From an archaeon (GTDB lineage: Archaea; Nanobdellota; Nanobdellia; SCGC-AAA011-G17; VGLX01): a DNA stretch of 50,842 bases. Below, piece after piece: positions 4,525-17,480 of this stretch. Position numbers and translations under genes: made by a program. The notes below the pieces were generated by a model. It was not told where the DNA came from. It made no database searches and saw only the letters and a program-made list of their open reading frames with translations. The stretch spans positions 1 to 50,842 of the forward strand of contig JBDRNX010000037.1 of the NCBI GenBank assembly GCA_043810595.1. The letters are read 5' to 3'. Each line of letters opens with the position of its first letter. Positions within the stretch are counted from its first letter, which is position 1.

Positions 4525-4526
4525 TT

Positions 4527-4549
4527 TAATCTATTGGACATACAATATT
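4527..4549 (+). repeat. copy 1 of a 23-nt motif TAATyTATTGGnnATACAATATT
   Basis: 20 of 23 positions are identical to 16961-16983. Both copies sit immediately after a hairpin plus T-run. Confidence 0.6.
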
Positions 4550-4732
4550 AAAGGAAACCTTAAGCCTTTCCAGAACCTTTGTCCAGTGACAAAGGGGTGT
4601 TGCTCTTCCAAAATATTTAAATAATAGTGGGTATTCCTAATACACAGTAATTAAAGCTGTGTCTACTTGCAGTTAGTCTCAGTAATTCTGGAAAAAAAGA
4701 GGAAAAATTAACTATGGGGAGGTAGGATACAT

Positions 4733-4751
4733 AACCAAAAAGTATATAAAT
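4733..4751 (+). promoter_or_regulatory. archaeal BRE/TATA-like element
   Basis: AACCAAAAAGTATATAAAT is identical over 19 nt to 49323-49341. The second copy lies about 55 nt upstream of the SLT/LysM gene start. Confidence 0.45.
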
Positions 4752-5130
4752 GGGTTAATTCGCATAATTGAGTCACATTCACCAATTCAAAAATTAAAAA
4801 CCTCGGAGTTTAACTCCAAACACCCGCAAGGGTTTACCGGATCCACAAGCATACAAACAAAATTCACGCAATAATAAGTTTTGTTTGTTAGTTGCTTTGG
4901 ATAATGAGGTTGGATTCAAGAGACTGGCGATTTGCTTTGAATCGTTACTCCTGGAAAAACCTCGGAAGATGTGTGGAAAGCTTTGCTTTCGCAAATTGAG
5001 CCTTTGGCTTGTTTTCTTATATAGTGTGTTCCATTTCCTTAACTTTTCCTGAAAGTGAAAAACCCCGTTTTCATGGGTATTTCCTTGGGAATACCAAAAA
5101 ATAGAGCATAGAAAGGAGGTGGTGATTTAA

Positions 5131-5172
5131 AGGTTTTTCAGCAACTTAGGAAGGTTTTTCAGCAACTTAGGA
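5131..5172 (+). repeat. perfect tandem direct repeat, 2 x 21 bp
   Basis: AGGTTTTTCAGCAACTTAGGA occurs at 5131-5151 and again at 5152-5172. Confidence 0.85.
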
Positions 5173-5184
5173 AAGGAGTGTAAC

Positions 5185-5290
5185 ATGCGTTTGCGTTTCT
5201 TGAGAATGTTTTGTCGGCCTCCGTGATTAACTTCTCCTTCCTTGAACTATTTGGGGGTGTAGTTCAATTACATAACTTCTAGGGAAGGAG
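5185..5290 (+). promoter_or_regulatory. candidate leader peptide plus anti-SD attenuator for the 5298 gene
   Basis: A 13-codon ORF (MRLRFLRMFCRPP, 5185-5226) follows AAAGGAG. CTCCTTCC (5234-5241) is the exact complement of GGAAGGAG (5283-5290), which is the SD of the next gene. Confidence 0.25.
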
Positions 5291-5297
5291 GTTCATT

Positions 5298-5600
5298 ATG
5301 AAATCGTTGGAATGTTTAAAGCCTGGGCAGTGTCCGGAAGGCGGGATTAGTGCAGATAAGTTAAATGTTGAGTTAAAAAAAGCACCTTTAAATAAAGACT
5401 TGGTGTGGGTGTGGGCAAAGAGTACTATCATTCAAAAGGTATCAGGCAAGATTGAGGCTGGCCTCGTCAAGGTTCGTCTTGTTAAAGGTGAAAGTCCCAA
5501 CGGTCAGAAGGAGTTTCGCTTGAAAGGCACCGAGAGTGTGAGTCTGATTTTCGCCCAGTTCGCCCAGAGAACTAATAATAAGAAGAACAAAAAACGATGA
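5298..5600 (+). CDS. hypothetical basic protein
   Basis: ATG lies 7 nt after GGGAAGGAGG. 100 aa with a Lys-rich tail. Confidence 0.5.
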   Translation: MKSLECLKPGQCPEGGISADKLNVELKKAPLNKDLVWVWAKSTIIQKVSGKIEAGLVKVRLVKGESPNGQKEFRLKGTESVSLIFAQFAQRTNNKKNKKR

Positions 5601-5696
5601 TGTACATACGGGCTGCTCACTCTATTAGGGGATATACTAACCTAATTAGGTATCGGGTCTGCAGCCCTTTTTTATCTTCTCAAAAAGGAGGTTCGC

Positions 5697-6188
5697 ATGA
5701 AGATTTTCGGATTATTAGTGGTATTTCTTCTTTTGTTCCCATCTATCTCTCCTACGCAGCAGCTCGAGCGTGATATCAAGTTGGATGTTTTCTTCACAGA
5801 CCTTGTTCCAGAGTTGAAAAAGCCTGAGCATAGAGAGTTGTTGCAGAGCCTTCAGATGGATAGGGATTTTTTCAACCGTGAGATTGGTGAGAAGGTGATG
5901 GCTGAGATAAAAAACTCAAATTTCTTAGTCAAGGTCCCTGACCGCATCATGCTTTGCTTAACAGGAAGAATAGAGTCTGTAAGCAAGGGCTTGCTTTCTG
6001 ATGAGATTACCTACATTGTTTATTTTCTTACAGCAGTTCGCAACAGCGAGCCAAAGCCGAATAAGCCCCTTCACATTATTCCTATCAAGGTTAACTGGCC
6101 TGAAGGAACTCCTCTCAATGAGTTGCTCAAGCCAAAGATTAGGGAGGCAGTGGACACCATAGTAAGGGAGGTGATTCAGAAAAAATGA
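5697..6188 (+). CDS. secreted hypothetical protein
   Basis: SD AAAGGAGG is present. Signal peptide MKIFGLLVVFLLLFPSISP. Confidence 0.55.
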   Translation: MKIFGLLVVFLLLFPSISPTQQLERDIKLDVFFTDLVPELKKPEHRELLQSLQMDRDFFNREIGEKVMAEIKNSNFLVKVPDRIMLCLTGRIESVSKGLLSDEITYIVYFLTAVRNSEPKPNKPLHIIPIKVNWPEGTPLNELLKPKIREAVDTIVREVIQKK

Positions 6189-6231
6189 GTTTGGAAGGAG
6201 GTGGTTAACTTAGACAGAAAGGAGGTGTCAC

Positions 6232-6753
6232 ATGTTGAGGTACACTAAGGTGTTTGTTTTCTTGTTGTTCTCCCTTCTCATACCTGTCTTTGTTTTTTCT
6301 CAGCAGCCAACGGACAAGATGAAGGTCTGTATTAGTATTGAAGACCGCACTCCCGAGAAGAAGTTTCAGGCGAATCTCAAGGACTGGTTTACAAAAGGCC
6401 TGGTTGATACGGGCAGGTACGTAATCACCAAAGAGAGGAAAGAAGCACAGTATCAAATGACTTTAACCTTAGACAAAGCCAGTTTTTATGTGCTTCGGAA
6501 TCTTCCTTACACCGGCGTATCCCTGAACGTTGTGGTAAGTGAGATAGACCCGAAGACCGGCAAGGCTTTGCCAACTGGTCCTCCCTACGTCGTTGTCCAA
6601 CACCAGAAGCATGATATCACTTTGGAGGAAGCTGTCAAGGAAGCTGTGAAACAAGCAGCGGATGCGTTGAGGCTGTTCCATTTTAAATTCCATTTCAAAA
6701 GGGTCAACCCTACTTCTCCTGCTAACCCATTAAGCAAATCCAAGGCGGCATAA
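6232..6753 (+). CDS. secreted hypothetical protein
   Basis: SD GAAAGGAGG is present. Signal peptide FVFLLFSLLIPVFVFS. Confidence 0.55.
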   Translation: MLRYTKVFVFLLFSLLIPVFVFSQQPTDKMKVCISIEDRTPEKKFQANLKDWFTKGLVDTGRYVITKERKEAQYQMTLTLDKASFYVLRNLPYTGVSLNVVVSEIDPKTGKALPTGPPYVVVQHQKHDITLEEAVKEAVKQAADALRLFHFKFHFKRVNPTSPANPLSKSKAA

Positions 6754-6864
6754 CCTTCCTTCTGTTTGGGAGGTTCAAAACTTTGAAGAAAGGGGGTGAA
6801 TTAGTTTTACCATAGGGTAAAAGGGTTTAACTCAAAAAATCCAAAGAGACGGAGGTGTAAAGAG

Positions 6865-7263
6865 ATGAAGAAATTGTTTTTAGTTACAGTTGCGTTACTC
6901 GCTTTTGTTTCTGTGTTGGCATTTGTCCCCACGAATGCAAGAGCTGACTTCGGCCCCTGGGGTTTTGGGAATCCAACCTTTATCAACGGGAATTCGTTTA
7001 ATGGCCAGTACTACCTCGATAAGGCCAAGTCCACCAACGAGTATCAGGATGATCCCGTTAAGAGAATCGAGCGGATGATGAACAAGATGATGGACGACCT
7101 GAAGGCTATGATGGATGATCTAACCGACAGCATTGACAATTTAACCCTCAATTTTGATTACAACTTCAATTATATCATCCAATCGGGTAGCTACAACAGT
7201 GCAATCCTGCTCCCCGGTTCAGGCATGCTGGGTGGTTTCAACCCGAGCTGGGGTTTTGAGTAA
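6865..7263 (+). CDS. csgF: CsgF-like curli accessory protein (candidate)
   Basis: Signal peptide ends ...VPTNARA. The mature N-terminus WGFGNPTFINGNSFNG...NEYQDDP resembles, from memory, the E. coli CsgF plug region FQFRNPNFGGNPNNG...NSYKDP. The gene lies directly upstream of csgG. The C-terminus carries QSGSYNSA, a curlin-like half repeat. Confidence 0.5.
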   Translation: MKKLFLVTVALLAFVSVLAFVPTNARADFGPWGFGNPTFINGNSFNGQYYLDKAKSTNEYQDDPVKRIERMMNKMMDDLKAMMDDLTDSIDNLTLNFDYNFNYIIQSGSYNSAILLPGSGMLGGFNPSWGFE

Positions 7264-7287
7264 GCCCGTGATTGAGTAAGCCCGTGA
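7256..7287 (+). repeat. perfect tandem duplication, 2 x 16 bp, spanning the stop codon
   Basis: TTGAGTAAGCCCGTGA occurs at 7256-7271 and again at 7272-7287. Confidence 0.85.
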
Positions 7288-7335
7288 GAGGCACTCAGTC
7301 AGAAAAAATTTGATATTAAAGGAGGTAGGAAAGAG

Positions 7336-8259
7336 ATGAAGAAAACCTTGTTCAATCTAAGTCTGTTCGTTGTTGTCGTGCCTCTCATTCTTGGGTGTGC
7401 AGCCACATCCAAGAATTTAGACGGGAGGTACAAGTATGAGGGGGCAGTTCCAAACTGGACAGGCGCTTCTGAGAATCTGAAAAAGTTGCCTGCACCTAGC
7501 GAGAAGATTGTCGTAGCAGTTTGGAAGCTGCCTGATGAGACGGGTCAACATCGTCGTAGCGTAAACGCCACGGATTTGAGTAAGGCCGTGACGCAGGGCG
7601 GTGTCCATATGTTGATCAATGCCCTGCTGAAATCTAAGTGGTTTGAAGTAGTTGAGAGGGAGTCTTGGAGTAACCTTTATCAGGAGCTGAAGATCAGGGA
7701 AGAGATGCAGCGCCAAGGTGCAAAGGTCAACGGGGGTGTTGTCGGCCTGAAAGTGCCCAGGTTCATGATTACAGGTGCCATAACGGAATATGAGCATCAA
7801 CCATTCTCCGCTGGTGCTGGTGCAGGCTACCGTGGCTTCGGGCTAAGTGCTCGTGCGAAAATCAGCTCTGTCACAACGGATTTGCGCCTGACAGATCTTA
7901 ACACTGGTGTTGTCCTTGATGCAGTTAGCGTCTACAAACGCATCGCCTCTGAGGAAGTGGACTTCTCAATCTTCCGGTTTTTGAAGATTGACAAGTTGTT
8001 GGAAGTTGAGACTGGTTTCACTACCAACGAACCCACTCAGGCTTGCGTGAGGGAAACCATCGAGAAGAGCGTCATTAATCTCATCACAAAATGCGTTAAT
8101 AGTGGGCTGTGGTCTCCCAAGAATCCGGATGACAAGAAGTTCTTCTCTGAACTGAAGCTTGAGTTTGATGAAATGGCCGCTGCTGAGAAGAAGGCCGAGG
8201 TTCAGGAAGAGAAGGTTCCGGTGCAGAAGATCGTTTTCGGCAAGGAAGTTTCTGATTAG
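7336..8259 (+). CDS. csgG: CsgG-family curli secretion channel lipoprotein
   Basis: Lipobox LILGC. LPAPSEKIVVAVWKLPDETGQ, FTTNEPTQACVRETIEKSVINLI and GLWSPKN parallel, from memory, E. coli CsgG LPAPTGKIFVSVYNIQDETGQ, YTSNEPVMLCLMSAIETGVIFLI and GLWDLQN. Confidence 0.88.
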   Translation: MKKTLFNLSLFVVVVPLILGCAATSKNLDGRYKYEGAVPNWTGASENLKKLPAPSEKIVVAVWKLPDETGQHRRSVNATDLSKAVTQGGVHMLINALLKSKWFEVVERESWSNLYQELKIREEMQRQGAKVNGGVVGLKVPRFMITGAITEYEHQPFSAGAGAGYRGFGLSARAKISSVTTDLRLTDLNTGVVLDAVSVYKRIASEEVDFSIFRFLKIDKLLEVETGFTTNEPTQACVRETIEKSVINLITKCVNSGLWSPKNPDDKKFFSELKLEFDEMAAAEKKAEVQEEKVPVQKIVFGKEVSD

Positions 8260-8341
8260 TCAACCCTTAACCCTCTTTTGTAACTTAAGTTGTGGAACAC
8301 GCGCGCTGGCTTGGGCTTGAGTTATAGAAAGGAGACTTCTC

Positions 8342-8989
8342 ATGAAGAAGTTAGTGTTACTCAAAACGGTACTTATCCTTACCCTCGTGATGGCAACGTC
8401 GGCTTTTGCCATCGGTGGGCTGAACGTCAGTGGTATTGAGCAGGCAGGTCTCTACAACGAGGCCATCGTTAAACAGTTCAGCATTCACGGACTGAATGCG
8501 TCTAGGGTGGGTCAGTATGGGAAGTCCAACCTGGCCTACATCGATCAGATGGACAATTTCCTGGGCGCAAACCTTTCCGGTGTCCTCCAGGCTGGTCGCT
8601 ATAACGCCGCCTTCGTGGACCAGAATGCTTTCTTGGGGGTCAACCTTAACTGCATCCGGCAGTTTGGCAAGGCCAACCTCGCGAAAGTGTTCCAACTTGC
8701 CATCTTCGGACTGAATGCATCCAAGGTTGGGCAGTACGGATGGTACAATCTGGCGTTGGTGAAGCAGATTGCACTCTGCGGAATCAACCTCTCCAGCATC
8801 GATCAGGTGGGCGCGGGTAACTTCGCGAAAACGTTCCAACTTGCCATTAAGGGCCTGAACATTTCCGACGTCGAGCAAGTGGGATGCGGAAACGTTGCCC
8901 TTACGAAGCAGATAGCCCTCCACGGCGTGAACATCAGTTGCATCGGGCAGTACGGGGTTGGGAACTTCGCCCTTGTTTTCCAACACTAA
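8342..8989 (+). CDS. csgA: curlin-repeat (CsgA-like) secreted amyloid subunit, 8 repeats
   Basis: Sec signal ends ...ATSAFA. Then eight units of about 24 aa of form G-h-N-x-S-x-h-x-Q-x-G-x-x-N-x-A-x3-Q, for example QYGKSNLAYIDQ, QAGRYNAAFVDQ, QFGKANLAKVFQ, QVGAGNFAKTFQ. Confidence 0.8.
   Translation: MKKLVLLKTVLILTLVMATSAFAIGGLNVSGIEQAGLYNEAIVKQFSIHGLNASRVGQYGKSNLAYIDQMDNFLGANLSGVLQAGRYNAAFVDQNAFLGVNLNCIRQFGKANLAKVFQLAIFGLNASKVGQYGWYNLALVKQIALCGINLSSIDQVGAGNFAKTFQLAIKGLNISDVEQVGCGNVALTKQIALHGVNISCIGQYGVGNFALVFQH
8411..8986 (+). repeat. 72-bp-period coding repeat array (8 imperfect units)
   Basis: This is the DNA of the eight curlin-type repeats. It also produces the long antisense shadow ORF at 8357-8986. 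Confidence 0.75.
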
Positions 8990-9160
8990 GAGCTGCCTCT
9001 GACCATCATCTTGTTGGATCTATCGCGTTTCATTTCCAGCAAGATGGAACACATCCTCGTCGGGAAAATTCAAACCCTCATAAGGGTCTCTCGTCGGGGG
9101 ATCTCTGAGTTGTAAAATTCAAGCAATGTCCAGCGCGCGTTCCTATATTTTTCGTTAAGA

Positions 9161-9216
9161 GAGGATGGTTAGCTTATTCTTGCTTTCCATCCTCTTGCTT
9201 TCCATCCTTTTTTTTA
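9161..9216 (+). terminator. terminator-like hairpin with a duplicated 3' arm
   Basis: GAGGATGG (9161-9168) can pair with either copy of the tandem 15-mer CTTGCTTTCCATCCT (9179-9193 and 9194-9208). A T8 run follows. Confidence 0.55.
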
Positions 9217-9264
9217 TCTTCAAAACCTTGTAACTTCTAAAAAGTAACAACAAAAAGGAGGTTC

Positions 9265-10389
9265 ATGCTTATGAAGAAATCTTTTTGTTTTGTTGTAGGT
9301 TTTTTGCTCTTTCTCTTTTTTGCTTTTGCAAATGCGTTTGCTTTCACCGCCATCAATCCCAACGCTGACCGTATCTCTGTGGCTCCCGGTGAGACAAAAA
9401 CGGTGAAGGTGAATTTTACGGTGTTCTCTCAGACTCCTCAGACCGTCTCTTTCACCCCCATGCATGTTGCTGTGGACAGTAATGGCATGCTCTTGCATTC
9501 TGAGAATCTTGAGGAGGTTCTTCCTTCAAAGCCAAAAAGGTACTCGGGACTAAGCTTCGTTCAGAAGATTAACCCCGTAAAAACAGACGCACAGGGGAAG
9601 TGGGAAGAGGTTCCTGTAACAATCTCTGTACCAAAGGACGCTGTCCCAGGTGATTACCCTGTTGCTGTAATTACAAAACCTCTCAACCTCGCATCTTTAT
9701 TGATTATTGACGTAACTGGTAAGAACACTCCACCGCAAGGACAAATAAAGAATCCCAAGGTTGAGGTTGTCCAGAATAGAGTGACTGTTACAGCCGAGTA
9801 TGTAAACACATCTTCTCGGACTTCCCTCCCGGTTGTTGGTTGCTCAATAAAGAAAGATGGGCAGAGCTTGGGTGCGATGGAGCTTGAAATTTCCAACGCC
9901 ATGTATGATTTCATCTTGCCTTTGAACAGCAGGAATTTTAGTGGGAGTTTCCAGAGAAAGATGAACGTTGGCAATTACGAGTTTGAGTTCTTCTCCCTCA
10001 TCGATGATAAGATGGTAAAACACAACACCATGAAATTTAACCTAACCAGGGATGTATTCCTGCAGCAGGAAACCCTCTTTTCCATCGATGTGGTCAACCT
10101 GTCTTCCATCCACCTCTCTCTACCTTCTAGCACTTTCTTCGTTGGGGATTTAAATATTAGGAATTTGACCAAACAGAAAATCATCGTGAAATTTATGCCA
10201 ACGGACAGCTGGTTGAGGGTTGAGCATCCAGCGGTGGAGATCGAGCCTGAAAAAACAATCAAGACAAGGTTCAGTATCGAGACCCCTTCATTGTACAAGG
10301 ACACGATGAGATCCAAACTCCTTCTGATTCCTGATGCGGGGTCAGTTTTTGAGGTGAGCGTCAAAGTGAGTCCGTCCAAATTGAAGTAG
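9265..10389 (+). CDS. secreted multi-domain beta-sandwich-like protein
   Basis: SD AAAGGAGG is present. Signal peptide ends ...FANAFA. Segments such as ISVAPGETKTVKVNFTV and VPGDYPVAVI are typical of Ig/PapD-like surface domains. The family is not identified. Confidence 0.55.
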   Translation: MLMKKSFCFVVGFLLFLFFAFANAFAFTAINPNADRISVAPGETKTVKVNFTVFSQTPQTVSFTPMHVAVDSNGMLLHSENLEEVLPSKPKRYSGLSFVQKINPVKTDAQGKWEEVPVTISVPKDAVPGDYPVAVITKPLNLASLLIIDVTGKNTPPQGQIKNPKVEVVQNRVTVTAEYVNTSSRTSLPVVGCSIKKDGQSLGAMELEISNAMYDFILPLNSRNFSGSFQRKMNVGNYEFEFFSLIDDKMVKHNTMKFNLTRDVFLQQETLFSIDVVNLSSIHLSLPSSTFFVGDLNIRNLTKQKIIVKFMPTDSWLRVEHPAVEIEPEKTIKTRFSIETPSLYKDTMRSKLLLIPDAGSVFEVSVKVSPSKLK

Positions 10390-10494
10390 TTTCTTCCCGA
10401 TTGGGGGGGGCTGCACATGGTGAAAACGTTTCACCCCCAGAGCATATCACCCCTTGTTTCACCGGCAGCCCTCCTCCTTTTTCTGGAGGTTTTT

Positions 10495-11493
10495 ATGAAA
10501 AAGTATAACTTGTTTATGATGTTTTTTTTAGTTTTTTTCATACTTTTTTTCCCTGGTTCTGCAGGCTGGAAGATAGCTATCATCGCTTTCATTTTCCTGC
10601 TGCCTTACCTAGTAAAACAGCTTTTGAAGAAAGGAGGTGGAAAAAATACGTTGGTTGAAATGTTTTTTTCTTTGTTTATTTTTTTGTTTGTTGTTTCTTG
10701 TGCGACAACGCAGCAACAGGTGGTTATGCCAACACCTACAGAAGGTACAACTAAGGTGAGATTTACTAAGATCGGTGTTGACGAAAAGCAGGCTCCTCCC
10801 CTTTCTTTTTTTCTCGTTCCCGAAACTTTAAATGTTGAGGTTCCTTACGAGAAGGATACACCTCTTTTTGTCAACTTTGTGAATTGCAAGGAAGAAGTTC
10901 TTATGGTTTCCGTAAATCCGCAAACAATTCCTGAATGGATTCGTATACACCCTGCTTTTCTGGTTAGGGCTTTGGAGATCAAGAGGGTTGATTTTACTCT
11001 TATGCCTTACAAGTCAAAAGATGTTCCCCAGGAGTTCTCGATAACCTTCAAGGCCAAAGAGTCAGTTAGGAATCTTAAGTTGACTGTCAAGGTTTCTAAA
11101 TCCGAAAAAGTAGATTCTTTGGGAAAGCAGGAAGTTCAGCCAGTTCCTCCGAAAGAGGTTGAGAAAAAACCCATCGAAGTTCCTAAGGTTAAGGATGTGG
11201 TCAGGCGCGTGTTATTTTCTGTTCACGTGGCCTCTTTCAAGAATAGGGAAGAGGCTTTGGATTTTGTGGACAGCATGCCTAACCTGGAGCCGAAGACTAG
11301 TGTGATCCTTTATGACCTCGGTAGTAAGGGTTTGTGGTATCGGGTCTTTGTGGGGCTTTACAACACCCATGAGACTGCATTGGGGGTTGCGAGACATTTT
11401 AAGGAATTCTTCGGCTGGGGCTATGCGCTACCCATACAGGTTTATGAGGATTCCTTCCTTAGGGGGAAGGTTAAGAAGCGGAAGCGTGAATGA
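10495..11493 (+). CDS. membrane/lipobox protein with a C-terminal SPOR domain
   Basis: ATG at 10495 after CTGGAGG. TM helices, then FVVSC-ATTQQQ. The C-terminus FSVHVASFKNREEALDFV...GLWYRVFVGLYNTHETALGVARHF fits the SPOR peptidoglycan-binding repeat. Confidence 0.65.
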   Translation: MKKYNLFMMFFLVFFILFFPGSAGWKIAIIAFIFLLPYLVKQLLKKGGGKNTLVEMFFSLFIFLFVVSCATTQQQVVMPTPTEGTTKVRFTKIGVDEKQAPPLSFFLVPETLNVEVPYEKDTPLFVNFVNCKEEVLMVSVNPQTIPEWIRIHPAFLVRALEIKRVDFTLMPYKSKDVPQEFSITFKAKESVRNLKLTVKVSKSEKVDSLGKQEVQPVPPKEVEKKPIEVPKVKDVVRRVLFSVHVASFKNREEALDFVDSMPNLEPKTSVILYDLGSKGLWYRVFVGLYNTHETALGVARHFKEFFGWGYALPIQVYEDSFLRGKVKKRKRE

Positions 11494-11610
11494 GGAGGCT
11501 GTTATGGCTGTTGTTTTTCTCTTTACAGTAGCTGTGGGTAAGTATTTCAAATGGAATCAGAGGTATTACCCTTCATTTAAGAAGAATGATGAGGAGGCTG
11601 ATAAGAATTA

Positions 11611-11781
11611 GAGGGGCCTTCGGTCAGATAACGCGTCGCGCACCCACGCGTATCCTCGTTACTTTCACCTCCACCGGGGGCCCCTCTTTTTGCTTCAGGG
11701 GGATGCTGCAGAGCGAACCTCCTTTCTGGGGATTTACGGGAACCCTCAGTTTGAGAAGTGGCATCCCACCCCTGTTTTTTT
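11611..11781 (+). other. two consecutive large GC-rich hairpin modules, each ending in a T-run (sRNA or compound terminator)
   Basis: GAGGGGCC (11611-18) pairs with GGCCCCTC (11679-86), followed by T5, with an inner ACGCGT...ACGCGT stem. GGGGGATGC (about 11698) pairs imperfectly with GCATCCCACCCC (11761-72), followed by T7. Confidence 0.35.
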
Positions 11782-11886
11782 CTCAAAATTTTTTTTACAG
11801 TATTAGCCACTGCAAAATATACTTTGTAGGAAATATATTTCAGAATTATTATTTTGAATTTATAACTGAAAGGGAAGGTGATAGCG

Positions 11887-12009
11887 ATGGTTGTTTTCAT
11901 ATGCCTGAATTGTGCTTTAGTTCATCGTATAGGCTCACTGAGTGATGTGGTCACTTGTGGTTGTGGCATGATTCTTTCTATCGATACTGCTAACTTGGAC
12001 TATGATTAG
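11887..12009 (+). CDS. possible 40-aa zinc-ribbon-like peptide
   Basis: Hand-translated as MVVFICLNCALVHRIGSLSDVVTCGCGMILSIDTANLDYD, with CxxC...CxC. Weak SD GGGAAGGTGA. Confidence 0.3.
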   Translation: MVVFICLNCALVHRIGSLSDVVTCGCGMILSIDTANLDYD

Positions 12010-12031
12010 GCAGAGAAAGGAGGTGTAAAAG

Positions 12032-12673
12032 ATGAATAAGATGTTTTTTATTTTCCTAATTCTTTTTTCAACCCTCTCTGTTTACTCTGTTTGGGGTCAA
12101 GAAAGGTTCGAAGCGCCTATATGGAATGTAGGTGATGAATGGCAATATACCTTTAGTGAGTTTGGGAGGAGGGTTTTTGTAACGCATAAAGTTGTTAAGA
12201 TTACCGAAAACTTCTATTTTGTTGCGATGGGGGGGTTCAAAGGCTTACACGTCTATGATAAAAAGACTTTGAACATACGTTTTTATATAGATGAGGGTAA
12301 CAGAAAGCATGAGTTCAAGGATTCTTTGAGAAAACTTTTTGATTTTCCTATGTTTGTGGGAAAGAGTTGGAATGATGAATTCATTAAAAGGAATGAGTAT
12401 GCTGAGTTGAACATCACAATCTCTAACCACTTTAATGTCGAGGAGTTTGAAAAGAGAAACCAGTCTTTAGGCCTGTTCGACGTTTTGAGGGTTTATTGTA
12501 AGGAAACAGCCACAATAGATGATGATAAAGATAAAACCGTTACAAGGTGGCTGCGTTACTGGTATTCCCCTAAGGTAAAGAACCTCGTTAGGCAAGAAAT
12601 TGGAGAAAAATCCAATTTCGTATCTTCAAGTTCAAGGGAGATTGTTCTTCATCAGCATACCTTGAAAGAGTAA
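12032..12673 (+). CDS. secreted hypothetical protein
   Basis: SD AAAGGAGG is present. Signal peptide MFFIFLILFSTLSVYSVWG. Confidence 0.55.
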   Translation: MNKMFFIFLILFSTLSVYSVWGQERFEAPIWNVGDEWQYTFSEFGRRVFVTHKVVKITENFYFVAMGGFKGLHVYDKKTLNIRFYIDEGNRKHEFKDSLRKLFDFPMFVGKSWNDEFIKRNEYAELNITISNHFNVEEFEKRNQSLGLFDVLRVYCKETATIDDDKDKTVTRWLRYWYSPKVKNLVRQEIGEKSNFVSSSSREIVLHQHTLKE

Positions 12674-12744
12674 TGTGTGTTATGCTGCGCTAAAATATCT
12701 TTAAATAAGAAGCTTAAGTTTTGAAAAAAGGATAAGGAGGTGGT

Positions 12745-13044
12745 TTGATGAATAACGGAGAATTTATGATGAGATGGTTTATCAGCGTTTTTGGCATCAT
12801 AGCAAGTTTGTTTATGATGCTAGTAAATTCTGCTTTGATAGTGTATGTTGTCTGGCAAGCTGTTCATCTTAAGAGTTCAGACATCAGTCCGCTCGTGAGT
12901 TGGGTTACCTCCTCAGCGATTTCCATCCTCATAGCATATATGGTCTACAGTGCAAGTGTCAAGTTTTACACTTTTCTGAAGCGTCTTCCTCTTATTCGTC
13001 AGCATCTGAATAACGGCGGGACATTGGCTGATTTGAGTGAGTAG
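12745..13044 (+). CDS. membrane protein (3 TM)
   Basis: SD AAGGAGGTGG is present. The start is TTG 12745 or ATG 12748. Three hydrophobic helices. Confidence 0.5.
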   Translation: MMNNGEFMMRWFISVFGIIASLFMMLVNSALIVYVVWQAVHLKSSDISPLVSWVTSSAISILIAYMVYSASVKFYTFLKRLPLIRQHLNNGGTLADLSE

Positions 13045-13052
13045 CCAAGTAA

Positions 13053-13601
13053 ATGAGGGTGTTCGATAATGAGAGGCTCCTGACCCTTGAGATTCAAAGG
13101 CGAGCCATACGCCTTTCCTCCTTGAACGGTTGGGGGCCTCTCTCAGTTTCAAATCTTTGTAGAAGGGTGGTGATATCCTTGTTGGTAGACAACGCTTTTT
13201 CTAAGCATAAAACCAGCGTCAAATGTGTTGAGGACAAACTCGAGGACCTTGCAGGTTTTGTTAGGAAAGTAAGAAGGCAAACTCTAAACAACGGCGGTGT
13301 AGGTCTACCTGAATTGAAGAACCTCGAGGAGAAGGTGCATAGTATCAAAAAATCCGTCCAGTTCCTTAAGGATACAGATATTTTTAGGGTTGCGATAACA
13401 ACCAAACTTACATCCGATGAAATTCTTAAAGAGGCGAAGGATCATAACGTATTGATAGTCTCACTTTTGAAGATCGGTTTTGTTAACAGGAAAGTGCAGT
13501 TTGTTGCTGACGGGTCATTTCAGAACCTAAAGGATTTTCTTGCTCGTATGAAAGATGTTGAGCGGGCTGAGGAGTTGAACCATATTGATGCTTCGAGATA
13601 A
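13053..13601 (+). CDS. hypothetical cytoplasmic protein
   Basis: 182-aa ORF on the same strand. It shares an R-Q-x-LNNGG-x-L motif with the tail of the preceding protein. Confidence 0.45.
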   Translation: MRVFDNERLLTLEIQRRAIRLSSLNGWGPLSVSNLCRRVVISLLVDNAFSKHKTSVKCVEDKLEDLAGFVRKVRRQTLNNGGVGLPELKNLEEKVHSIKKSVQFLKDTDIFRVAITTKLTSDEILKEAKDHNVLIVSLLKIGFVNRKVQFVADGSFQNLKDFLARMKDVERAEELNHIDASR

Positions 13602-13651
13602 TACTAAGATTTTTTTAACAAAAAGTTCTATAATCAAGGAGGTAAAAACGT

Positions 13652-13813
13652 ATGTCTATGCCGTTAATAATCGCTGGTGTGGTCGGCTTTCTCCTTATCT
13701 GCCTCTCTGTTTTTCTGAGCGGAAACTATACGATGGGAATACTGTTAGGGCTTTTCGTACTGATAATAATCCTGGTATTCCGGGGGAAATCTGGGTCCAA
13801 ATTGTGGAAGTAG
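13652..13813 (+). CDS. small 2-TM membrane protein (53 aa, not in the track)
   Basis: ATG lies 8 nt after CAAGGAGG. Reads MSMPLIIAGVVGFLLICLSVFLSGNYTMGILLGLFVLIIILVFRGKSGSKLWK. It displaces the overlapping track ORF at 13585-13848. Confidence 0.45.
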   Translation: MSMPLIIAGVVGFLLICLSVFLSGNYTMGILLGLFVLIIILVFRGKSGSKLWK

Positions 13814-13862
13814 GCAACTCTCCTTATTTTGATAACATTATGCCTTAGGTGATAAGTTTAGC

Positions 13863-14249
13863 GCGCTGGAGTTTTTGAAGGAGGTGGTTTGCATGGTGAA
13901 ATTGTTAGTGCCATTTCTCATTTTTAGCTTGTCATTTGCTCCATTGGGGTTCGTCCAGGACAAAGCTAAAGGTGAGGTCAAGGTTCCAGAATCGAAAAAA
14001 AGTAGTTCGCTTGAATCTCTGAACGTAAAGCCTCAAGAGGTTGAAAAGGGGTGGGGGGATTATTCCAGCCGGCCGGAGATTTGGTCTGTGGGTTTGGATC
14101 TTTTGGAACAAATCTACATCCTCAATGTAACGCTGACCCCTTCGCCGCCACCCTACCGCCCTTCTGGCGGTATCAGTTGTGTCCAGCAAGTTGGTGGGCG
14201 GAACGTCGCTACCATCAACCAAAACTAAAACTATTGAAAACTCCAGCGC
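13863..14249. repeat. 13-nt perfect inverted-repeat pair bracketing ORF 13893-14228
   Basis: GCGCTGGAGTTTT (13863-13875) and AAAACTCCAGCGC (14237-14249). The left arm, with its 2 upstream nt (13861-13869), shares GCGCGCTGG with the arm at 8301-8309. Confidence 0.75.
13893..14228 (+). CDS. small secreted protein ending in a single curlin-type repeat
   Basis: ATG after GAAGGAGG. Signal peptide LLVPFLIFSLSFAPLGFV. The C-terminus QQVGGRNVATINQ matches Q-x-G-x-x-N-x-A-x3-Q exactly. Confidence 0.5.
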   Translation: MVKLLVPFLIFSLSFAPLGFVQDKAKGEVKVPESKKSSSLESLNVKPQEVEKGWGDYSSRPEIWSVGLDLLEQIYILNVTLTPSPPPYRPSGGISCVQQVGGRNVATINQN

Positions 14250-14305
14250 CAACTTTTTTAAATTTAATTCAAAGGCTCACAAAAGAGGAGAAAGGAGAAG
14301 GAAAA

Positions 14306-14539
14306 ATGAAGAAGATTATTTGTGCAGGTTTAATAATGGCAATGTCTATATTCGTGTTTTTAGGGGGTGTCTACCGACTGAAGCAAATGATGTTAGAGGT
14401 CAAGGCATTACCTACTGGGGAACAGGGCGTGGGGGCTATTGTGCTTATATTTATAGGAACTCTAATATGTGGAGTGTGTCTTACAACCTTTTTTTTGGGT
14501 CTGTGTAAATTAAGGGGGGATAATCAATTAATTAGGTAA
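14306..14539 (+). CDS. small 2-TM membrane protein
   Basis: In-frame ATG after GAAAGGAGAAGG. Reads MKKIICAGLIMAMSIFVFLGG... The longer track ORF from 14051 overlaps the previous gene. Confidence 0.5.
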   Translation: MKKIICAGLIMAMSIFVFLGGVYRLKQMMLEVKALPTGEQGVGAIVLIFIGTLICGVCLTTFFLGLCKLRGDNQLIR

Positions 14540-14610
14540 AAAGGCCCACACTCTTTAACTTGATTCTGAAATAACAACTAAACTTTTATTGCAGAAAGGA
14601 GAATAAAAAA

Positions 14611-15150
14611 ATGTACAAGAATACTTTTTTGCTGTTTCTGATTGTCGTTTCTGTGTTGGGTTGTGCCACCCAAATGAGTTCAACCTATCCCACTCCCCCC
14701 TCTGCAACTCCGAAGGAGATTGTTTGTCAGTATGCTAAGTCAGCAAGTGCAACTTCAGAGAACGCTGCCGGTTCTTTAGCAATTTATGCTACCGGCGCAC
14801 CAGATGCTCCAAAAGGAGGGGATTGTGATGCTTGGAGTGGTTACGGTTACAGCTGGACTTCTTCAGGATGGGATTTCAAAGCAAAACTAACCCTGACTTA
14901 CGAGAAGCCTGTTTATGTTGGCAGCGTTACTGTAGCCGGCGATTATGATATGTGCTGGGGTGGTGCGTGGCTTAGGAACAGTAAGACTGGCGAGGAAAAA
15001 AGTATTCTCAGCCCGGTGAATAAAGATTGTACATTGAATATAAAGCTGGAGGGAGACTTCCTCGCAGACCAGGTTATTCTTGAGAGTTGCGGTTGGTCTT
15101 GGTCAGCCACCGATGCCGTTGAGATGTGTGGTGCTCCTGCCGGTAAGTAA
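14611..15150 (+). CDS. lipoprotein, possibly with a discoidin (F5/8 type C)-like domain
   Basis: SD AAAGGAG is present. Lipobox VLGC-ATQ. The layout AKSASATSEN...A..ATGAP and the C-terminal ATDAVEMCG resemble galactose-binding-like domains. Weak call. Confidence 0.5.
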   Translation: MYKNTFLLFLIVVSVLGCATQMSSTYPTPPSATPKEIVCQYAKSASATSENAAGSLAIYATGAPDAPKGGDCDAWSGYGYSWTSSGWDFKAKLTLTYEKPVYVGSVTVAGDYDMCWGGAWLRNSKTGEEKSILSPVNKDCTLNIKLEGDFLADQVILESCGWSWSATDAVEMCGAPAGK

Positions 15151-15166
15151 AGAAAGGGGGTGTTGG

Positions 15167-15538
15167 ATGAAGGTAAGGAATATTTTTTATTTGACCATTT
15201 ATGGTGTCTTGTGTATGTTCTTGGGTGCTTTTATTATAGGGGTTCTTGATTTTTATTTCAAGAGAAATATGGTTCAAGTCCGTCTAAACACAAAGCATTA
15301 CGAAGCGGATATTCTCTTCAAGAACCCCCTCATCCTGGTTATCAACAGGATCGATGAAGTGGAGAGAAGGGTTCAGGGCGGCATGGAAGACATGCTCATA
15401 GACCTGATGGCCCCCTCACCTTTCCAGAAGGTTTTTAGCAAGATAAACAAGGAAAAGCTCGACGAGAAGAAGAAACTTGTTGAGGCTTTCAAGGATTTTT
15501 TGCAAGAGAAAAAGGTTGAAGGAGAAACTGAACTTTGA
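15167..15538 (+). CDS. N-terminally anchored membrane protein
   Basis: ATG after AAAGGGGG. TM helix IFYLTIYGVLCMFLGAFIIGVL. Confidence 0.5.
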   Translation: MKVRNIFYLTIYGVLCMFLGAFIIGVLDFYFKRNMVQVRLNTKHYEADILFKNPLILVINRIDEVERRVQGGMEDMLIDLMAPSPFQKVFSKINKEKLDEKKKLVEAFKDFLQEKKVEGETEL

Positions 15539-15570
15539 AGTTGCATAATCCATCTAGGGAGGTTGTCGTG

Positions 15571-16062
15571 ATGAGACCTAAATCCTTTTTGCTTTTTATT
15601 TTCTTATCTTTTTGTGCGTGTGCTACCATACCTGAAGACTATTCTATTCAGTGCATAAAAGGGAACGTGGTTGTTATGGCACCGCATACGGTTGAGGCCA
15701 GAAACAGCTATCTTGGAAAAGAGGGTCCTGTATGGGCATGGGAAACCACCTTTGTAGAAAACTCTGAGGTTATAGGGGTAACAATAACCCATCGTGAGCT
15801 GAAAATACAAGTCCCAGACGGTAGCGTTTGGGAGAACATAGATCCTGTTACAAAAAAGCCGTTGGGCAAAGTTCCTCTTAGCATTAGGGTTAATCCTGGA
15901 GGTGTGAAGAACTATAAATTTTGGTGTTATGATACCTCCCACAGGATGTGTAACAGTATATGTTCCCTCACTTTCTACGGCGTGGATGACACGGGTAAAC
16001 AGCTCGTTTTGCCCACTATGATATTCTTCTCCCATAAAGGCTGTCAGAAAAGGATTAGGTAA
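15571..16062 (+). CDS. lipoprotein
   Basis: ATG after TAGGGAGG. Reads MRPKSFLLFIFLSFCAC-ATIPE, a signal peptide plus lipobox-like Cys. Confidence 0.55.
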   Translation: MRPKSFLLFIFLSFCACATIPEDYSIQCIKGNVVVMAPHTVEARNSYLGKEGPVWAWETTFVENSEVIGVTITHRELKIQVPDGSVWENIDPVTKKPLGKVPLSIRVNPGGVKNYKFWCYDTSHRMCNSICSLTFYGVDDTGKQLVLPTMIFFSHKGCQKRIR

Positions 16063-16292
16063 TTACAAATCTATGTCAGAGGAAGGTGATATGCGTAAGA
16101 ATCTGTCAAAGGAAATAGCGGGGGGGTGTTGGTTTTCTGGGTCTTTCCATGATTGCTTTCAAAATGGTGAAATGCTTTGAGACGTCAAAGGGAAGGTACA
16201 ATAACTACGTTACCGGCTTGTCAAACGGGGAGGTTTTGAAGTTGAAATATTATGAAAGGAAGGTGAGGTAACCCTGAGAGGAGGTGATTAAG

Positions 16293-16883
16293 ATGAGAAA
16301 GAAAGGTTTTACTGTCATCGAGCTTCTTATCATTATTGCGATTGTCGGTATTATTGCTGCCATCGCCATCCCTATGTACAAGATGCATGTGATGAAGCCA
16401 AGGATTATCACTTCTGCTCTGGAGACTATGCCTCTCTGCAGAGATGTGGAACCTTCTTCAATCAAGATAAAGGGTAGGTGCATTATCATTGATGCAGATA
16501 AGCGGGATTTTGTTTCAGAATACGAGTCCCTACTTAAACCAAATATCAGAGGCGCTATCAGTAACCCTGAATTAACAATCTTCGCTGTGTCTAAAGGTAA
16601 GGAAGTTCAGATTGGTCATTATTCTGTCACTAAAGAGCCTGCTTTTCAGAGTTACGTTGATATTTATGTCATCTACTATCCTGAAAGCGTTCCTGTTGGG
16701 AAAGTTTCCCTCCCCCTATGGAAACCACCGGAAAAGAAGCCAGTTTCGCTGAAGTTGCCTAAAGATTCTAAAGATTATGTGGTGCCAACAGGGTTTGTCG
16801 AGTTGTGGATCAATAACCTTACGGAGCCTAAGGTTCCTAAGGAGCAGCCTGCGGGGGAGTACGAAGTTCTTATCAAGGATTAA
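16293..16883 (+). CDS. bacterial-type type IV pilin/pseudopilin (N-methylation motif)
   Basis: ATG after GAGAGGAGG. MRKKG|FTVIELLIIIAIVGIIAAIAIP is the canonical G-F-T-x-I-E prepilin cleavage/methylation signature. Confidence 0.75.
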   Translation: MRKKGFTVIELLIIIAIVGIIAAIAIPMYKMHVMKPRIITSALETMPLCRDVEPSSIKIKGRCIIIDADKRDFVSEYESLLKPNIRGAISNPELTIFAVSKGKEVQIGHYSVTKEPAFQSYVDIYVIYYPESVPVGKVSLPLWKPPEKKPVSLKLPKDSKDYVVPTGFVELWINNLTEPKVPKEQPAGEYEVLIKD

Positions 16884-16893
16884 AACATTAATG

Positions 16894-16939
16894 GGGTGGG
16901 GCTTCATTTTGTTTCCAATATGGAGCCCCAACCTTTTTT
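16894..16939 (+). terminator. intrinsic-terminator-like hairpin plus T6
   Basis: TGGGGCT (16897-16903) pairs with AGCCCCA (16924-16930). ACCTTTTTT follows. This marks the end of the co-directional cluster. Confidence 0.55.
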
Positions 16940-16960
16940 AAAAATTCTATTTTTTTGCCA

Positions 16961-16983
16961 TAATTTATTGGTTATACAATATT
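16961..16983 (+). repeat. copy 2 of the 23-nt motif TAATyTATTGGnnATACAATATT
   Basis: 20 of 23 positions are identical to 4527-4549. It also follows a hairpin plus T-run. Confidence 0.6.
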
Positions 16984-16997
16984 TAAAAAATAAAAAA

Positions 16998-17480
16998 TTA
17001 CGTTTTCATTTTTCTTAACCATCTAAATCCAAGCGCTGAATAAACAATCGCTAGTGCGGAGTAATTTGCTATCATAAACCATGGCGTACCCCAACTTATT
17101 ACACTGAGATGGAAATCTGATACGGGGTATAAGAATGGAGTCGGAAAAAATTCTTCTGTATGAGTGAATATGTCTATCACTATGTGCATCATCCAAGCTC
17201 CTACCAAGATGAGATACTTTCTAAATTTTAAATAGACAAATATGGCGAAAATACCTGCTATGAAAAGGCTGTGTGTTAGGCTGTACATGAAGGTCACATA
17301 ATTTGGTATGCTCCCCCCATGGGGTCCTCCGAAAATGAAATTTCCAGTTATAAAAAGGATAAAGAGGTATATCCCAAAAGAAAGCAAGTCAGGCATCACG
17401 CTCATTGCTACAGTCCATTTCGTTAGTGTTCTTTTTCTGAAGACAGCGTAACCCCATAGCGCATGAGCAAATACATCCAT
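16998..17480 (-). CDS. polytopic membrane protein, possibly a DUF457/YdjM-like metal-dependent hydrolase
   Basis: 160 aa with 4-5 TM helices. Conserved-looking His/Asp residues (MDVFAHALWG, PDLLSF, MHIVIDIFTH). The family call is tentative. Confidence 0.4.
   Translation of the reverse strand: MDVFAHALWGYAVFRKRTLTKWTVAMSVMPDLLSFGIYLFILFITGNFIFGGPHGGSIPNYVTFMYSLTHSLFIAGIFAIFVYLKFRKYLILVGAWMMHIVIDIFTHTEEFFPTPFLYPVSDFHLSVISWGTPWFMIANYSALAIVYSALGFRWLRKMKT

What the first reader, a model, noticed from the sequence alone, without database searches (positions are those of the whole stretch)
8294..14249. Core-sharing inverted repeats bracket exactly the two curlin-motif genes
The 8-repeat curlin gene (8342-8989) is bracketed by GGAACACGCGCGCTGG (8294-8309) and CCAGCGCGCGTTCC (9130-9143). 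The small gene ending in a single curlin repeat (13893-14228) is bracketed by GCGCTGGAGTTTT (13863-13875) and AAAACTCCAGCGC (14237-14249). Both left arms contain the same 9-mer GCGCGCTGG (8301-8309 and 13861-13869). I saw the CGCGC-containing core nowhere else while reading the window. Such gene-bracketing inverted repeats could act in several ways. They could be recombination sites for whole-gene inversion, giving phase variation of fibre subunits. They could be long-range 5'/3' RNA stems that excise or stabilise monocistronic mRNAs out of the long operon. Or they could be paired operator half-sites. The tandem excisionase-like HTH protein at 860-1300 is a candidate partner, but no invertase is visible.
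Basis: seen in the sequence. Interest (0 to 1): 0.62.

Follow-up and report, generated by a model that had tools for sequence, protein, structure and literature searches.

The report
RNA clamps around archaeal curlin genes
The inverted repeats around the two amyloid-fibre (curlin) genes of this tiny DPANN archaeon are real and conserved. They most likely pair the start and end of each gene's messenger RNA into a long helix that probably protects or tunes that message, and they are probably not a DNA flip-switch.

Summary
The 9-mer GCGCGCTGG occurs three times in the 815-kb genome, and all three copies are arms.

Taken alone, each repeat is no longer than chance allows. What makes them real:
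- The CsgA-like gene has the strongest 5'-flank/3'-flank complementarity of 864 genes.
- The arms recur in every related locus recovered with both flanks: six loci for the CsgA-like gene, three for the small gene.
- Their sequence changes while pairing is kept (U:A, A:U, G:C, G.U at one position). Eight of 16 pairs show double changes; 0 of 500 shuffles reach that.

Mismatches are mostly G.U on the sense strand. A second inner helix sits at variable spacing. The arms have no local partner. Whole-transcript folds give the long-range helix a probability near 1.

I found no invertase, and 10 of 10 assemblies (seven with the CsgA-like gene, three with the small gene) share one orientation. There is no RNase III, no bulge-helix-bulge motif and no Rfam match.

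Best reading (about 0.55): sense-strand 5'/3' RNA clamps around the last cistron of two operons, protecting its ends from the exosome and beta-CASP nuclease.

The parts
6865..7263 (+). CsgF-like gene (context)
   Evidence: Pfam PF10614, E 8.4e-07, above cut-off
7336..8259 (+). CsgG-like lipoprotein gene (context). It is the cistron directly upstream of left arm 1.
   Evidence: Pfam PF03783, E 4e-46
8294..8309 (+). Left arm 1. It consists of outer GGA 8294-8296, a 2-nt bulge, and the core ACGCGCGCTGG 8299-8309.
   Evidence: Sequence. Pairs with 9130-9143 at p about 1 in whole-transcript folds.
8315..8320 (+). Inner helix, 5' strand (GCTTGA). The window fold extends it weakly as far as the Shine-Dalgarno sequence at 8331-8335.
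   Evidence: GCTTG/CAAGC is conserved in relatives, with G.U variants and loops of variable size.
8342..8989 (+). CsgA-like gene with eight Q-x-G-x-x-N-x-A-x3-Q curlin repeats
   Evidence: Pfam PF07012, E 4.8e-15. Repeats read from the translation.
9119..9124 (+). Inner helix, 3' strand (TCAAGC)
9130..9143 (+). Right arm 1 (CCAGCGCGCGTTCC)
   Evidence: It has no local pairing partner.
9148..9152 (+). T5 run directly after right arm 1, a candidate archaeal oligo-T termination site
   Evidence: Sequence. A T-rich run follows the arm in G003, G001, L016 and L035 but not in L038.
9159..9215 (+). Conserved local hairpin (GAGGATGG...CCATCC) followed by T8; a terminator-like end of the unit
   Evidence: Fold z-score -3.9. 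Conserved in the 3'UTR alignment.
13863..13875 (+). Left arm 2 (GCGCTGGAGTTTT). It is preceded by a conserved GC at 13861-13862, and the Shine-Dalgarno GGAGG follows at 13880-13884.
13893..14228 (+). Small secreted protein of 111 aa that ends in one curlin repeat (VQQVGGRNVATINQN)
   Evidence: Translation. Homologues found at 77% identity (L017) and 25% identity (G003).
14237..14249 (+). Right arm 2 (AAAACTCCAGCGC), 8 nt after the stop codon
   Evidence: It has no local hairpin.
14254..14259 (+). T6 run after right arm 2. It is a candidate terminator and also overlaps a TTTAAAT box 50 nt before the next gene.

Best explanation
Each pair of arms forms the two strands of a long-range RNA helix in the sense transcript. 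The helix pairs the stretch just upstream of the curlin gene's ribosome-binding site with its 3' untranslated region, so the whole cistron becomes the loop of an RNA clamp (panhandle).

Both curlin genes look like the last cistron of an operon:
- BRE/TATA-like boxes lie far upstream, at about 4743 and 12700.
- T-runs or a terminator hairpin follow directly after the right arms.

On that layout the helix puts the transcript's 3' end, and the 5' end of any processed monocistronic product, into duplex. I infer that this shields the amyloid-subunit message from the archaeal exosome (3'->5') and the beta-CASP nuclease (5'->3'). The fibre subunits could then be made in excess over the CsgG/CsgF secretion parts encoded on the same transcript. 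A secondary effect on translation initiation is possible.

Shown here: the complementarity, its uniqueness in the genome, its conservation and covariation, and the thermodynamic prediction.

Inferred: that both arms are transcribed on one RNA, and that the effect is stabilisation.
For: - Uniqueness. GCGCGCTGG occurs only at three arms in 815 kb. The 7-mer CGCGCGC occurs only at the flanks of the CsgA-like gene and in one other contig per genome (the 16S rRNA gene in G000; not examined in G001), and only at those flanks in G003.
- Rank. The CsgA-like gene is first of 864 genes for 5'-flank x 3'-flank duplex energy, at -62.9 kcal/mol. The genome-wide control minimum is -58. The within-cluster mismatched control has mean -35.6, sd 6.4, and 0 of 600 pairs reach -62.9.
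- Folding. Whole-mRNA folds give the long-range pairs p of 0.99-1.0 for both genes. The same holds in G003, G001, L016, L035 and L038, where L038 has a 27-bp closing helix.
- Covariation. At the position next to the core the pair is U:A (window), A:U (G003, G001, L038), G.U (L016) and G:C (L035). A formal count on five loci gives 16 pairs, 90% of cells paired, and 8 pairs with changes on both sides; 0 of 500 shuffles reach that, and slid registers give 21-63% paired.
- Gene 2. The arms are GAGUUUU/AAAACUC in the window and GAGUUC/GAACUC in G003, although the proteins are only 25% identical.
- Strand. By hand count within the predicted helices, mismatches are about 9 G.U against 1 A.C on the sense strand. 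The sense duplex is more stable than the antisense one in 5 of 6 loci.
- Inner helix. GCUUG/CAAGC is kept, but the internal loops differ (5x5, 2x0, 4x1, 8x6). That fits an RNA helix and does not fit fixed-spacing DNA sites.
- Local structure. The arms have no local partner (z -0.6 to +1.3), while the adjacent terminator hairpin does fold locally (z -3.9).
- Nucleases. The genome encodes a beta-CASP ribonuclease and an Rrp41/Rrp42-like pair, both of which need single-stranded ends.
- Precedents. 5'/3' UTR pairing is documented for hbs (14 bp, PMC5737220) and icaR (PMC3868564). Haloarchaeal 5' and 3' UTRs must functionally interact (PMC2636863).
Against: - There are no transcript data.
- In G003 a hairpin plus T7 lies between csgG and the left arm. 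A start site set by that T-rich box could fall at or after the arm (my reading).
- There are few independent lineages: six for gene 1 and three for gene 2. Much of the covariation comes from one distant locus, L038. The alignment used for counting was put in register from the arms themselves.
- The seven core base pairs are invariant within the genus. That says nothing about pairing and could equally reflect sequence-specific recognition.
- Pairing of the Shine-Dalgarno sequence with the 3'UTR is seen in the window but not in G003 or L035.
- The stabilising role is inferred by analogy only.
Confidence: 0.55

Rival explanations
1. The same sense-strand RNA helix forms, but its main role is regulatory, as in icaR. 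It would limit or time translation of the aggregation-prone subunits by occluding the ribosome-binding region, or it would act as a switch with an alternative pairing inside the 3'UTR.
For: - In the window the predicted helix runs on to pair GGAGA 8331-8335 with UCUCU 9102-9106.
- In gene 2 the arm ends 4 nt before the Shine-Dalgarno sequence and wobble pairs reach into it.
- RNAalifold on the 3'UTR alone proposes a weak competing partner for the right arm.
- icaR provides a precedent (PMC3868564).
Against: - Shine-Dalgarno pairing is not conserved in G003 or L035.
- The alternative 3'UTR pairing is weak (-13 kcal/mol) and its covariation term is unfavourable.
- RNase III, which the icaR mechanism uses, is absent from the genus.
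Confidence: 0.15
2. The arms are recombination sites for inversion of the whole gene, giving phase-variable expression of the fibre subunits.
For: - Inverted repeats of 11-19 bp perfect match bracket a gene together with its ribosome-binding site, with the presumed promoter outside.
- Recombination cores must be identical, so arm-to-arm covariation alone does not exclude this reading.
- A tyrosine integrase exists at 24728-25996.
Against: - No recombinase is encoded in the 17-kb cluster. No serine recombinase scores above cut-off in the genome.
- The integrase sits next to tRNA-Gly as part of a separate element.
- All seven assemblies with the CsgA-like gene and all three with the small gene have the same orientation.
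- Outside a CGCGC core the arm sequences differ between lineages, so they do not behave like recombinase-binding sites.
- The inner helix has variable spacing, and the mismatches are sense-strand G.U.
Confidence: 0.07
3. The arms are DNA sites for a regulator that binds upstream and downstream of each curlin gene (operator half-sites with looping), co-regulating the two subunits.
For: - The GCGCGC run is shared by both genes and is invariant within the genus.
- Left arm 2 is identical over GCGCGCTGGAGTT in three lineages although the protein has diverged.
- An HTH_17 protein is encoded at 860-1300.
Against: - The arms co-vary within a gene, not across the two genes. In G003 and G001 gene 1 has CAG/CTG while gene 2 keeps CTGG/CCAG.
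- L038 has 19-27 complementary positions with mostly different sequence.
- No BRE/TATA-like box lies beside either left arm.
- The spacing between the two complementary blocks varies.
Confidence: 0.1
4. The repeats are relics, either terminal repeats of a cassette that delivered the curlin genes or leftovers of a duplication, and have no present function.
For: - Bacterial relatives with 60% identical CsgG have no CsgA-like gene between csgG and the 372-aa gene.
- The small gene and its arms sit beside different neighbours in the window, G003 and L017.
Against: - There are no other copies of the arms in the genome. I saw no convincing target-site duplication and no transposase.
- Relics would decay, but here pairing is kept through double substitutions across loci whose CsgG is only 65-75% identical.
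Confidence: 0.06

Closest known systems
Bacillus subtilis hbs mRNA 5'/3'-UTR interaction (Braun, Durand, Condon 2017, PMC5737220)
   Same: A helix of about 14 bp pairs the 5' UTR with the 3' UTR of one mRNA and modulates access of ribonucleases. The length is similar to the 11-14 bp cores found here.
   Different: hbs is bacterial and monocistronic, and its mechanism rests on RNase Y and RNase J1. Here the host is a DPANN archaeon with a beta-CASP nuclease and an exosome. The helix is extended by a second block (17-27 bp in total). The gene is probably the last cistron of an operon. Nothing has been shown experimentally.
Staphylococcus aureus icaR mRNA 5'/3'-UTR pairing (Ruiz de los Mozos et al. 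2013, PMC3868564)
   Same: The 3'UTR pairs with the 5'UTR of the same mRNA for a biofilm-related gene. In the window the predicted helix reaches the Shine-Dalgarno sequence.
   Different: icaR pairing targets the Shine-Dalgarno sequence and recruits RNase III. RNase III is absent from this genus, and the Shine-Dalgarno pairing is not conserved.
Functional 5'/3'-UTR interplay in haloarchaeal translation (Brenneis and Soppa 2009, PMC2636863)
   Same: An archaeal precedent that both UTRs of an mRNA act together.
   Different: That work rests on functional evidence without a defined conserved base-paired helix. Here there is a defined, covarying helix but no functional data.
rRNA processing stems: RNase III stems in bacteria, bulge-helix-bulge stems cut by EndA in archaea (PMC7038931, PMC7714728)
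   Same: Inverted repeats flanking a whole gene form a long helix in the primary transcript.
   Different: No bulge-helix-bulge (3-4-3) motif is present or conserved. G001 and L038 have uninterrupted helices. No RNase III is encoded.
Site-specific inversion switches (fimS, hin, Bacteroides invertons); named from my own knowledge
   Same: Short inverted repeats flank a segment that controls a surface-fibre gene.
   Different: There is no adjacent recombinase, no alternative orientation in 10 assemblies, and the arms diverge in sequence while keeping complementarity.

Membership tests
Intramolecular 5'UTR-3'UTR base-paired mRNAs (hbs / icaR type) | Complementary segments lie upstream of the start codon and downstream of the stop codon of one gene and are predicted to pair in the full transcript | tested here: met
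   Pair probabilities are 0.99-1.0 in whole-transcript folds. The same result holds in five related loci.
Intramolecular 5'UTR-3'UTR base-paired mRNAs (hbs / icaR type) | Both segments are present on the same RNA molecule | not testable with these tools
Indirect support: no TATA-like box lies next to the left arms, and T-runs or a terminator follow the right arms.
Intramolecular 5'UTR-3'UTR base-paired mRNAs (hbs / icaR type) | Pairing is maintained in evolution by compensatory changes | tested here: met
   8 of 16 pairs have changes on both sides, and 0 of 500 shuffles reach that. See also the register table and the gene 2 change from U:A to C:G.
Intramolecular 5'UTR-3'UTR base-paired mRNAs (hbs / icaR type) | Pairing alters mRNA stability or translation | not testable with these tools
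   This needs reporter, half-life or structure-probing experiments.
icaR-type mechanism specifically | The 3'UTR pairs with the Shine-Dalgarno sequence and the duplex is cut by RNase III | tested here: not met
   Shine-Dalgarno pairing appears only in the window fold and not in G003 or L035. PF14622 is absent from four genomes of the genus, while the control genomes are positive.
Site-specific DNA inversion switch | A recombinase (serine invertase or tyrosine recombinase) is encoded at or near the switch | tested here: not met
   No recombinase domain is found in the cluster ORFs. PF00239 is below cut-off genome-wide. The only integrase in the window adjoins tRNA-Gly, 10 kb away.
Site-specific DNA inversion switch | Both orientations exist in populations or relatives | tested here: inconclusive
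   10 of 10 assembled loci show one orientation. Minority orientations in raw reads could not be examined.
Archaeal bulge-helix-bulge processing stem (EndA substrate) | Two 3-nt bulges on opposite strands separated by a 4-bp helix | tested here: not met
   The window has one 2-nt bulge and a 5x5 internal loop. G001 and L038 have uninterrupted helices. No such motif is conserved.
Intrinsic terminator | A short GC-rich hairpin with a loop of a few nucleotides, directly followed by a U-run | tested here: not met
   The arms are followed by T5 or T6 runs, but the 'loop' is 361-820 nt. The separate local hairpin at 9159-9215 does fit the definition.
MITE / IS-type cassette with terminal inverted repeats | Multiple copies, target-site duplication and a cognate transposase | tested here: not met
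   The arms occur nowhere else in the genome. No convincing direct repeat flanks them.
Curli / type VIII secretion locus (context) | CsgG, CsgF and a curlin-repeat subunit are encoded together | tested here: met
   PF03783, PF10614 and PF07012 all score above cut-off.

The most novel reading that the evidence does not exclude
The clamps are processing signals. In an archaeon that has neither RNase III nor a bulge-helix-bulge motif at these sites, the 17-27 bp helices would direct an unknown double-strand-specific activity. That activity would excise the curlin cistrons from their operon transcripts as end-paired, or even ligated circular, hyper-stable mRNAs.

Together with the similar gene-bracketing helices noted by this scan in CPR bacteria, this would point to a general 'clamped mRNA' design for surface-protein genes in ultra-small symbionts of both domains.
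Probability: 0.1. Interest if true: 0.8.

Novelty: new variant of a known kind. Interest (0 to 1): 0.55.

Why it matters
Base pairing between the two ends of a prokaryotic mRNA is documented for only a handful of bacterial genes. In archaea it is known only as a functional inference, without a defined helix.

Here a defined, covarying helix encloses exactly the two amyloid-subunit genes of a bacterial-type curli locus carried by a DPANN archaeon. If it is confirmed by transcript mapping, three things would follow:
- It would be a clear archaeal example of an mRNA clamp.
- It would offer a mechanism for setting subunit-to-machinery stoichiometry within an operon.
- It would give a sequence-level handle, through arm and compensatory mutants, for studying mRNA decay in archaea that cannot yet be cultured.

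It also corrects a tempting misreading of such repeats as phase-variation switches or transposon ends.

Tried and rejected
- Sequencing runs.
- Rfam 15 over 4000-17000 at E<=1. Only two sub-threshold chance hits, neither at the arms.
- RNase III processing. PF14622 is absent from the genus.
- Bulge-helix-bulge or EndA processing. No motif was found.
- Sigma-54 or sigma-70 promoter overlapping the arms. Reading by eye and the consensus scan gave nothing convincing.
- A genome-wide habit of gene-bracketing helices. Real and mismatched flank pairs have the same distribution (means -25.8 and -26.9), and within the cluster the means are -35.4 and -35.6. Only the CsgA-like gene stands out.
- Cross-pairing of left arm 1 with right arm 2. 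Seven base pairs in the window, but not conserved in G003.
- Restriction-site avoidance. GCGC has an observed/expected ratio of 0.92 and GCGCGC of 1.33.
- TTGTAAC as a shared promoter box. It occurs 141 times in the genome and is not specific.
- Full-length antisense ORFs as products of an inverted state. They are not conserved in G003 or G001.
- An automatic local alignment of the arms to classify mismatches ran off into noise. A fixed-register table replaced it.
- MAFFT misaligned the mini-constructs. L035 was left out of the formal count because its register is shifted by one.
- The homologue search with the CsgA-like protein returned nothing, and an exact look-up also returned nothing.
- Two CsgG relatives had no retrievable DNA.
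- Bacterial relatives show no arm-like sequence in the csgG-downstream spacer.

Full report
**1. Observation**

- Pair 1 is imperfect as written: 16 nt against 14 nt, with A8297 and C8298 bulged. Its perfect core is 11 bp, ACGCGCGCTGG 8299-8309 with CCAGCGCGCGT 9130-9140.
- Pair 2 is a perfect 13-bp repeat, 13863-13875 with 14237-14249.
- The 9-mer GCGCGCTGG has three hits in the window against 0.04 expected. It has three hits in the whole 815-kb assembly, all of them arms.
- The claim that CGCGC occurs nowhere else is not exact. It also occurs at 8811, 11205, 11637 and 40631 and is not enriched as a 5-mer.
- As bare inverted repeats the pairs are unremarkable. The genome holds 2297 perfect repeats of at least 10 bp within 100-3000 nt, and these two rank 10th and 20th by stacking energy.

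**2. Context**

The window is a whole contig of a small genome (815 kb, 92% complete).

- Its relatives are deposited as 'MAG: archaeon' and 'Candidatus Nanoarchaeia archaeon'.
- The contig carries archaeal-type genes: a PIN-KH ATPase, a GCD14-type tRNA methyltransferase, PolX and DUF763.
- The repeats lie in a co-directional cluster that contains CsgF (6865-7263), CsgG (7336-8259) and an eight-repeat curlin protein (8342-8989).
- The second bracketed gene (13893-14228) ends in one curlin repeat.
- Among 240 genomes of the order, only three, all in this genus, have the CsgG gene.

**3. More than chance**

- I computed the best duplex between the 70 nt before the start and the 200 nt after the stop for 864 ORFs. 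The CsgA-like gene ranks first at -62.9 kcal/mol. Mismatched controls have mean -27 and minimum -58.
- Within the cluster, mismatched flank pairs have mean -35.6 and sd 6.4, and none of 600 reaches -62.9.
- There is no general excess of flank complementarity in the genome or the cluster. The feature is specific to the curlin genes.
- The 7-mer CGCGCGC occurs in G000 and G001 only at the flanks of the CsgA-like gene and in one other contig each. In G000 that contig is the 16S rRNA gene. I did not examine the G001 contig. In G003 it occurs only at those flanks.

**4. Conservation and covariation**

I recovered both flanks of the CsgA-like gene from five further loci:

| Locus | CsgG identity to window |
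|---|---|
| G003 | 71-72% |
| G001 | 69-70% |
| L016 | 70% |
| L035 | 75% |
| L038 | 65% |

L015 supplied the left flank only.

- Every locus has complementary arms around a CGCGC(GC) run.
- The position next to the core reads U:A (window), A:U (G003, G001, L038), G.U (L016) and G:C (L035).
- L038 has a 19-bp perfect repeat, which becomes 27 bp when wobble pairs are allowed, with largely different outer sequence.
- In a register-fixed alignment of five loci, 16 pairs are 90% paired and 8 pairs carry changes on both sides. No shuffle out of 500 reaches that, and slid registers give 21-63% paired.
- Caveats: there are few sequences, much of the signal comes from L038, and the alignment was derived from the arms themselves.

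For the small gene the arms are as follows:

| Locus | Left arm | Right arm |
|---|---|---|
| Window | GCGCUGGAGUUUU | AAAACUCCAGCGC |
| G003 | GCGCUGGAGUUC | GAACUCCAGCGC |
| L017 | GCGCUGGAGUU(U)C | GAACUCCAGCGC |

The G003 protein is only 25% identical to the window's.

**5. RNA or DNA**

Several points favour a helix in the sense transcript.

- Within the predicted helices, mismatches are mostly G.U on the sense strand: about nine against one A.C by hand count. The sense duplex is more stable than the antisense one in five of six loci.
- A second block, GCUUG(A)/(U)CAAGC, lies inside the core helix. The internal loops between the two blocks differ in size between loci. RNA tolerates that; fixed protein-binding or crossover sites would not.
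- The arms of one gene co-vary with each other, not with the arms of the other gene. In G003 and G001 gene 1 has CAG/CTG while gene 2 keeps CTGG/CCAG.
- The arm regions have no local partner (z -0.6 to +1.3), while the neighbouring terminator hairpin at 9159-9215 does fold locally (z -3.9).
- Whole-transcript folds give the long-range pairs a probability of about 1.

Points against inversion:

- There is no recombinase in the cluster.
- No serine recombinase scores above cut-off in the genome.
- The integrase at 24728-25996 sits beside tRNA-Gly 24561-24635. An earlier first-reader note reads that region as a separate integrated element.
- All ten assemblies (seven with the CsgA-like gene, three with the small gene) share one orientation.

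**6. Likely mechanism**

- TATA-like boxes of the kind seen at 4743 and 49333 are absent next to either left arm. The nearest ones on the + strand are at 4743/5017/5126 and at 12700.
- The right arms are followed by T5 (9148-9152), then a hairpin and T8 (9159-9215), and by T6 (14254-14259).
- I therefore read each curlin gene as the last cistron of an operon, with the clamp tying the operon's 3' end to the spacer before that cistron.
- The genome encodes a beta-CASP nuclease and an Rrp41/Rrp42-like pair, both of which need single-stranded ends. RNase III is absent.
- My inference is end protection and segmental stabilisation of the subunit message. Fibre subunits would then exceed the secretion components encoded upstream.
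- A translational effect is a secondary possibility. In the window the helix extends to the Shine-Dalgarno sequence, but not in G003 or L035.

**7. Comparison with known systems**

- The nearest documented cases are the 14-bp 5'/3' UTR interaction of B. subtilis hbs (PMC5737220) and icaR of S. aureus (PMC3868564).
- In archaea, 5' and 3' UTRs are known to act together in haloarchaeal translation (PMC2636863), but no helix was defined there.
- rRNA processing stems share the geometry but not the bulge-helix-bulge motif.
- Rfam has no match.
- Earlier notes of this scan describe similar gene-bracketing helices around secreted-protein genes in Saccharibacteria and other CPR bacteria. I did not test those notes and do not count them as evidence. 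They do suggest the design may recur in reduced-genome symbionts.

**8. Limits**

- No transcript or read-level data could be used.
- Start sites are unknown. In G003 a hairpin plus T7 precedes the left arm, so its transcription depends on read-through or on an unrecognised promoter.
- The function is inferred by analogy.

**9. Verdict**

The feature is real and conserved. It is most likely an RNA clamp around each curlin cistron. I rate it a new variant of a known kind, the first such case I am aware of in an archaeon, of moderate interest.

Noticed in passing
window 6865-8989; L036, L037, L039: A bacterial-type curli module (CsgF, CsgG, eight-repeat curlin) sits on an archaeal (DPANN) contig and is found in only 3 of 240 genomes of the order. 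The closest non-archaeal CsgG proteins (60% identity) lie in bacterial contigs with multihaem cytochromes and sigma-54 regulators. There csgG is followed directly by the 372-aa WxLIP-like gene, with no curlin gene in between.
   Followed up: partly
window 13893-14228; L014 2496-2830 (minus strand); L017 256-585: The small single-repeat curlin gene travels with its arms but has different neighbours in the three genomes. In the window it lies before 14307. In L017 it lies before the homologue of 15167-15538. In G003 it lies after the homologue of 15535-16062.
   Followed up: partly
window 11611-11781: Two GC-rich modules of about 75 and 85 nt, each closed by a 9-10 bp stem and ending in T5 or T7, lie in an ORF-free spacer of the same cluster. 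They share the 'closing stem plus T-run' design at small scale. No Rfam match was found.
   Followed up: partly
window 8357-8986 (-) and 13932-14252 (-): Both curlin genes carry an almost full-length open frame on the opposite strand, because TTA, CTA and TCA codons are lacking. This is not conserved in G003 or G001, so it is probably a codon-usage effect of these G+C-richer genes.
   Followed up: partly
window 9023-9029: TCGCGTT is invariant in the 3'UTR of the CsgA-like gene in five loci, inside an otherwise variable 140-180 nt UTR. Its partner or role is unknown.
   Followed up: no
whole genome (G000): GATC is strongly under-represented (observed/expected 0.49 by a maximal-order Markov estimate). 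GCGC is not (0.92).
   Followed up: no
window 9182-9208: The terminator after the CsgA-like gene contains a tandem duplication of TTGCTTTCCATCCT. Either copy can close the hairpin with GAGGATGG at 9161-9168.
   Followed up: no
window 14257-14263: The T-run after right arm 2 overlaps a TTTAAAT box 50 nt before the next gene (14307). In this lineage the same bases may therefore serve as both a terminator and a promoter element. The arrangement is not conserved in G003.
   Followed up: no
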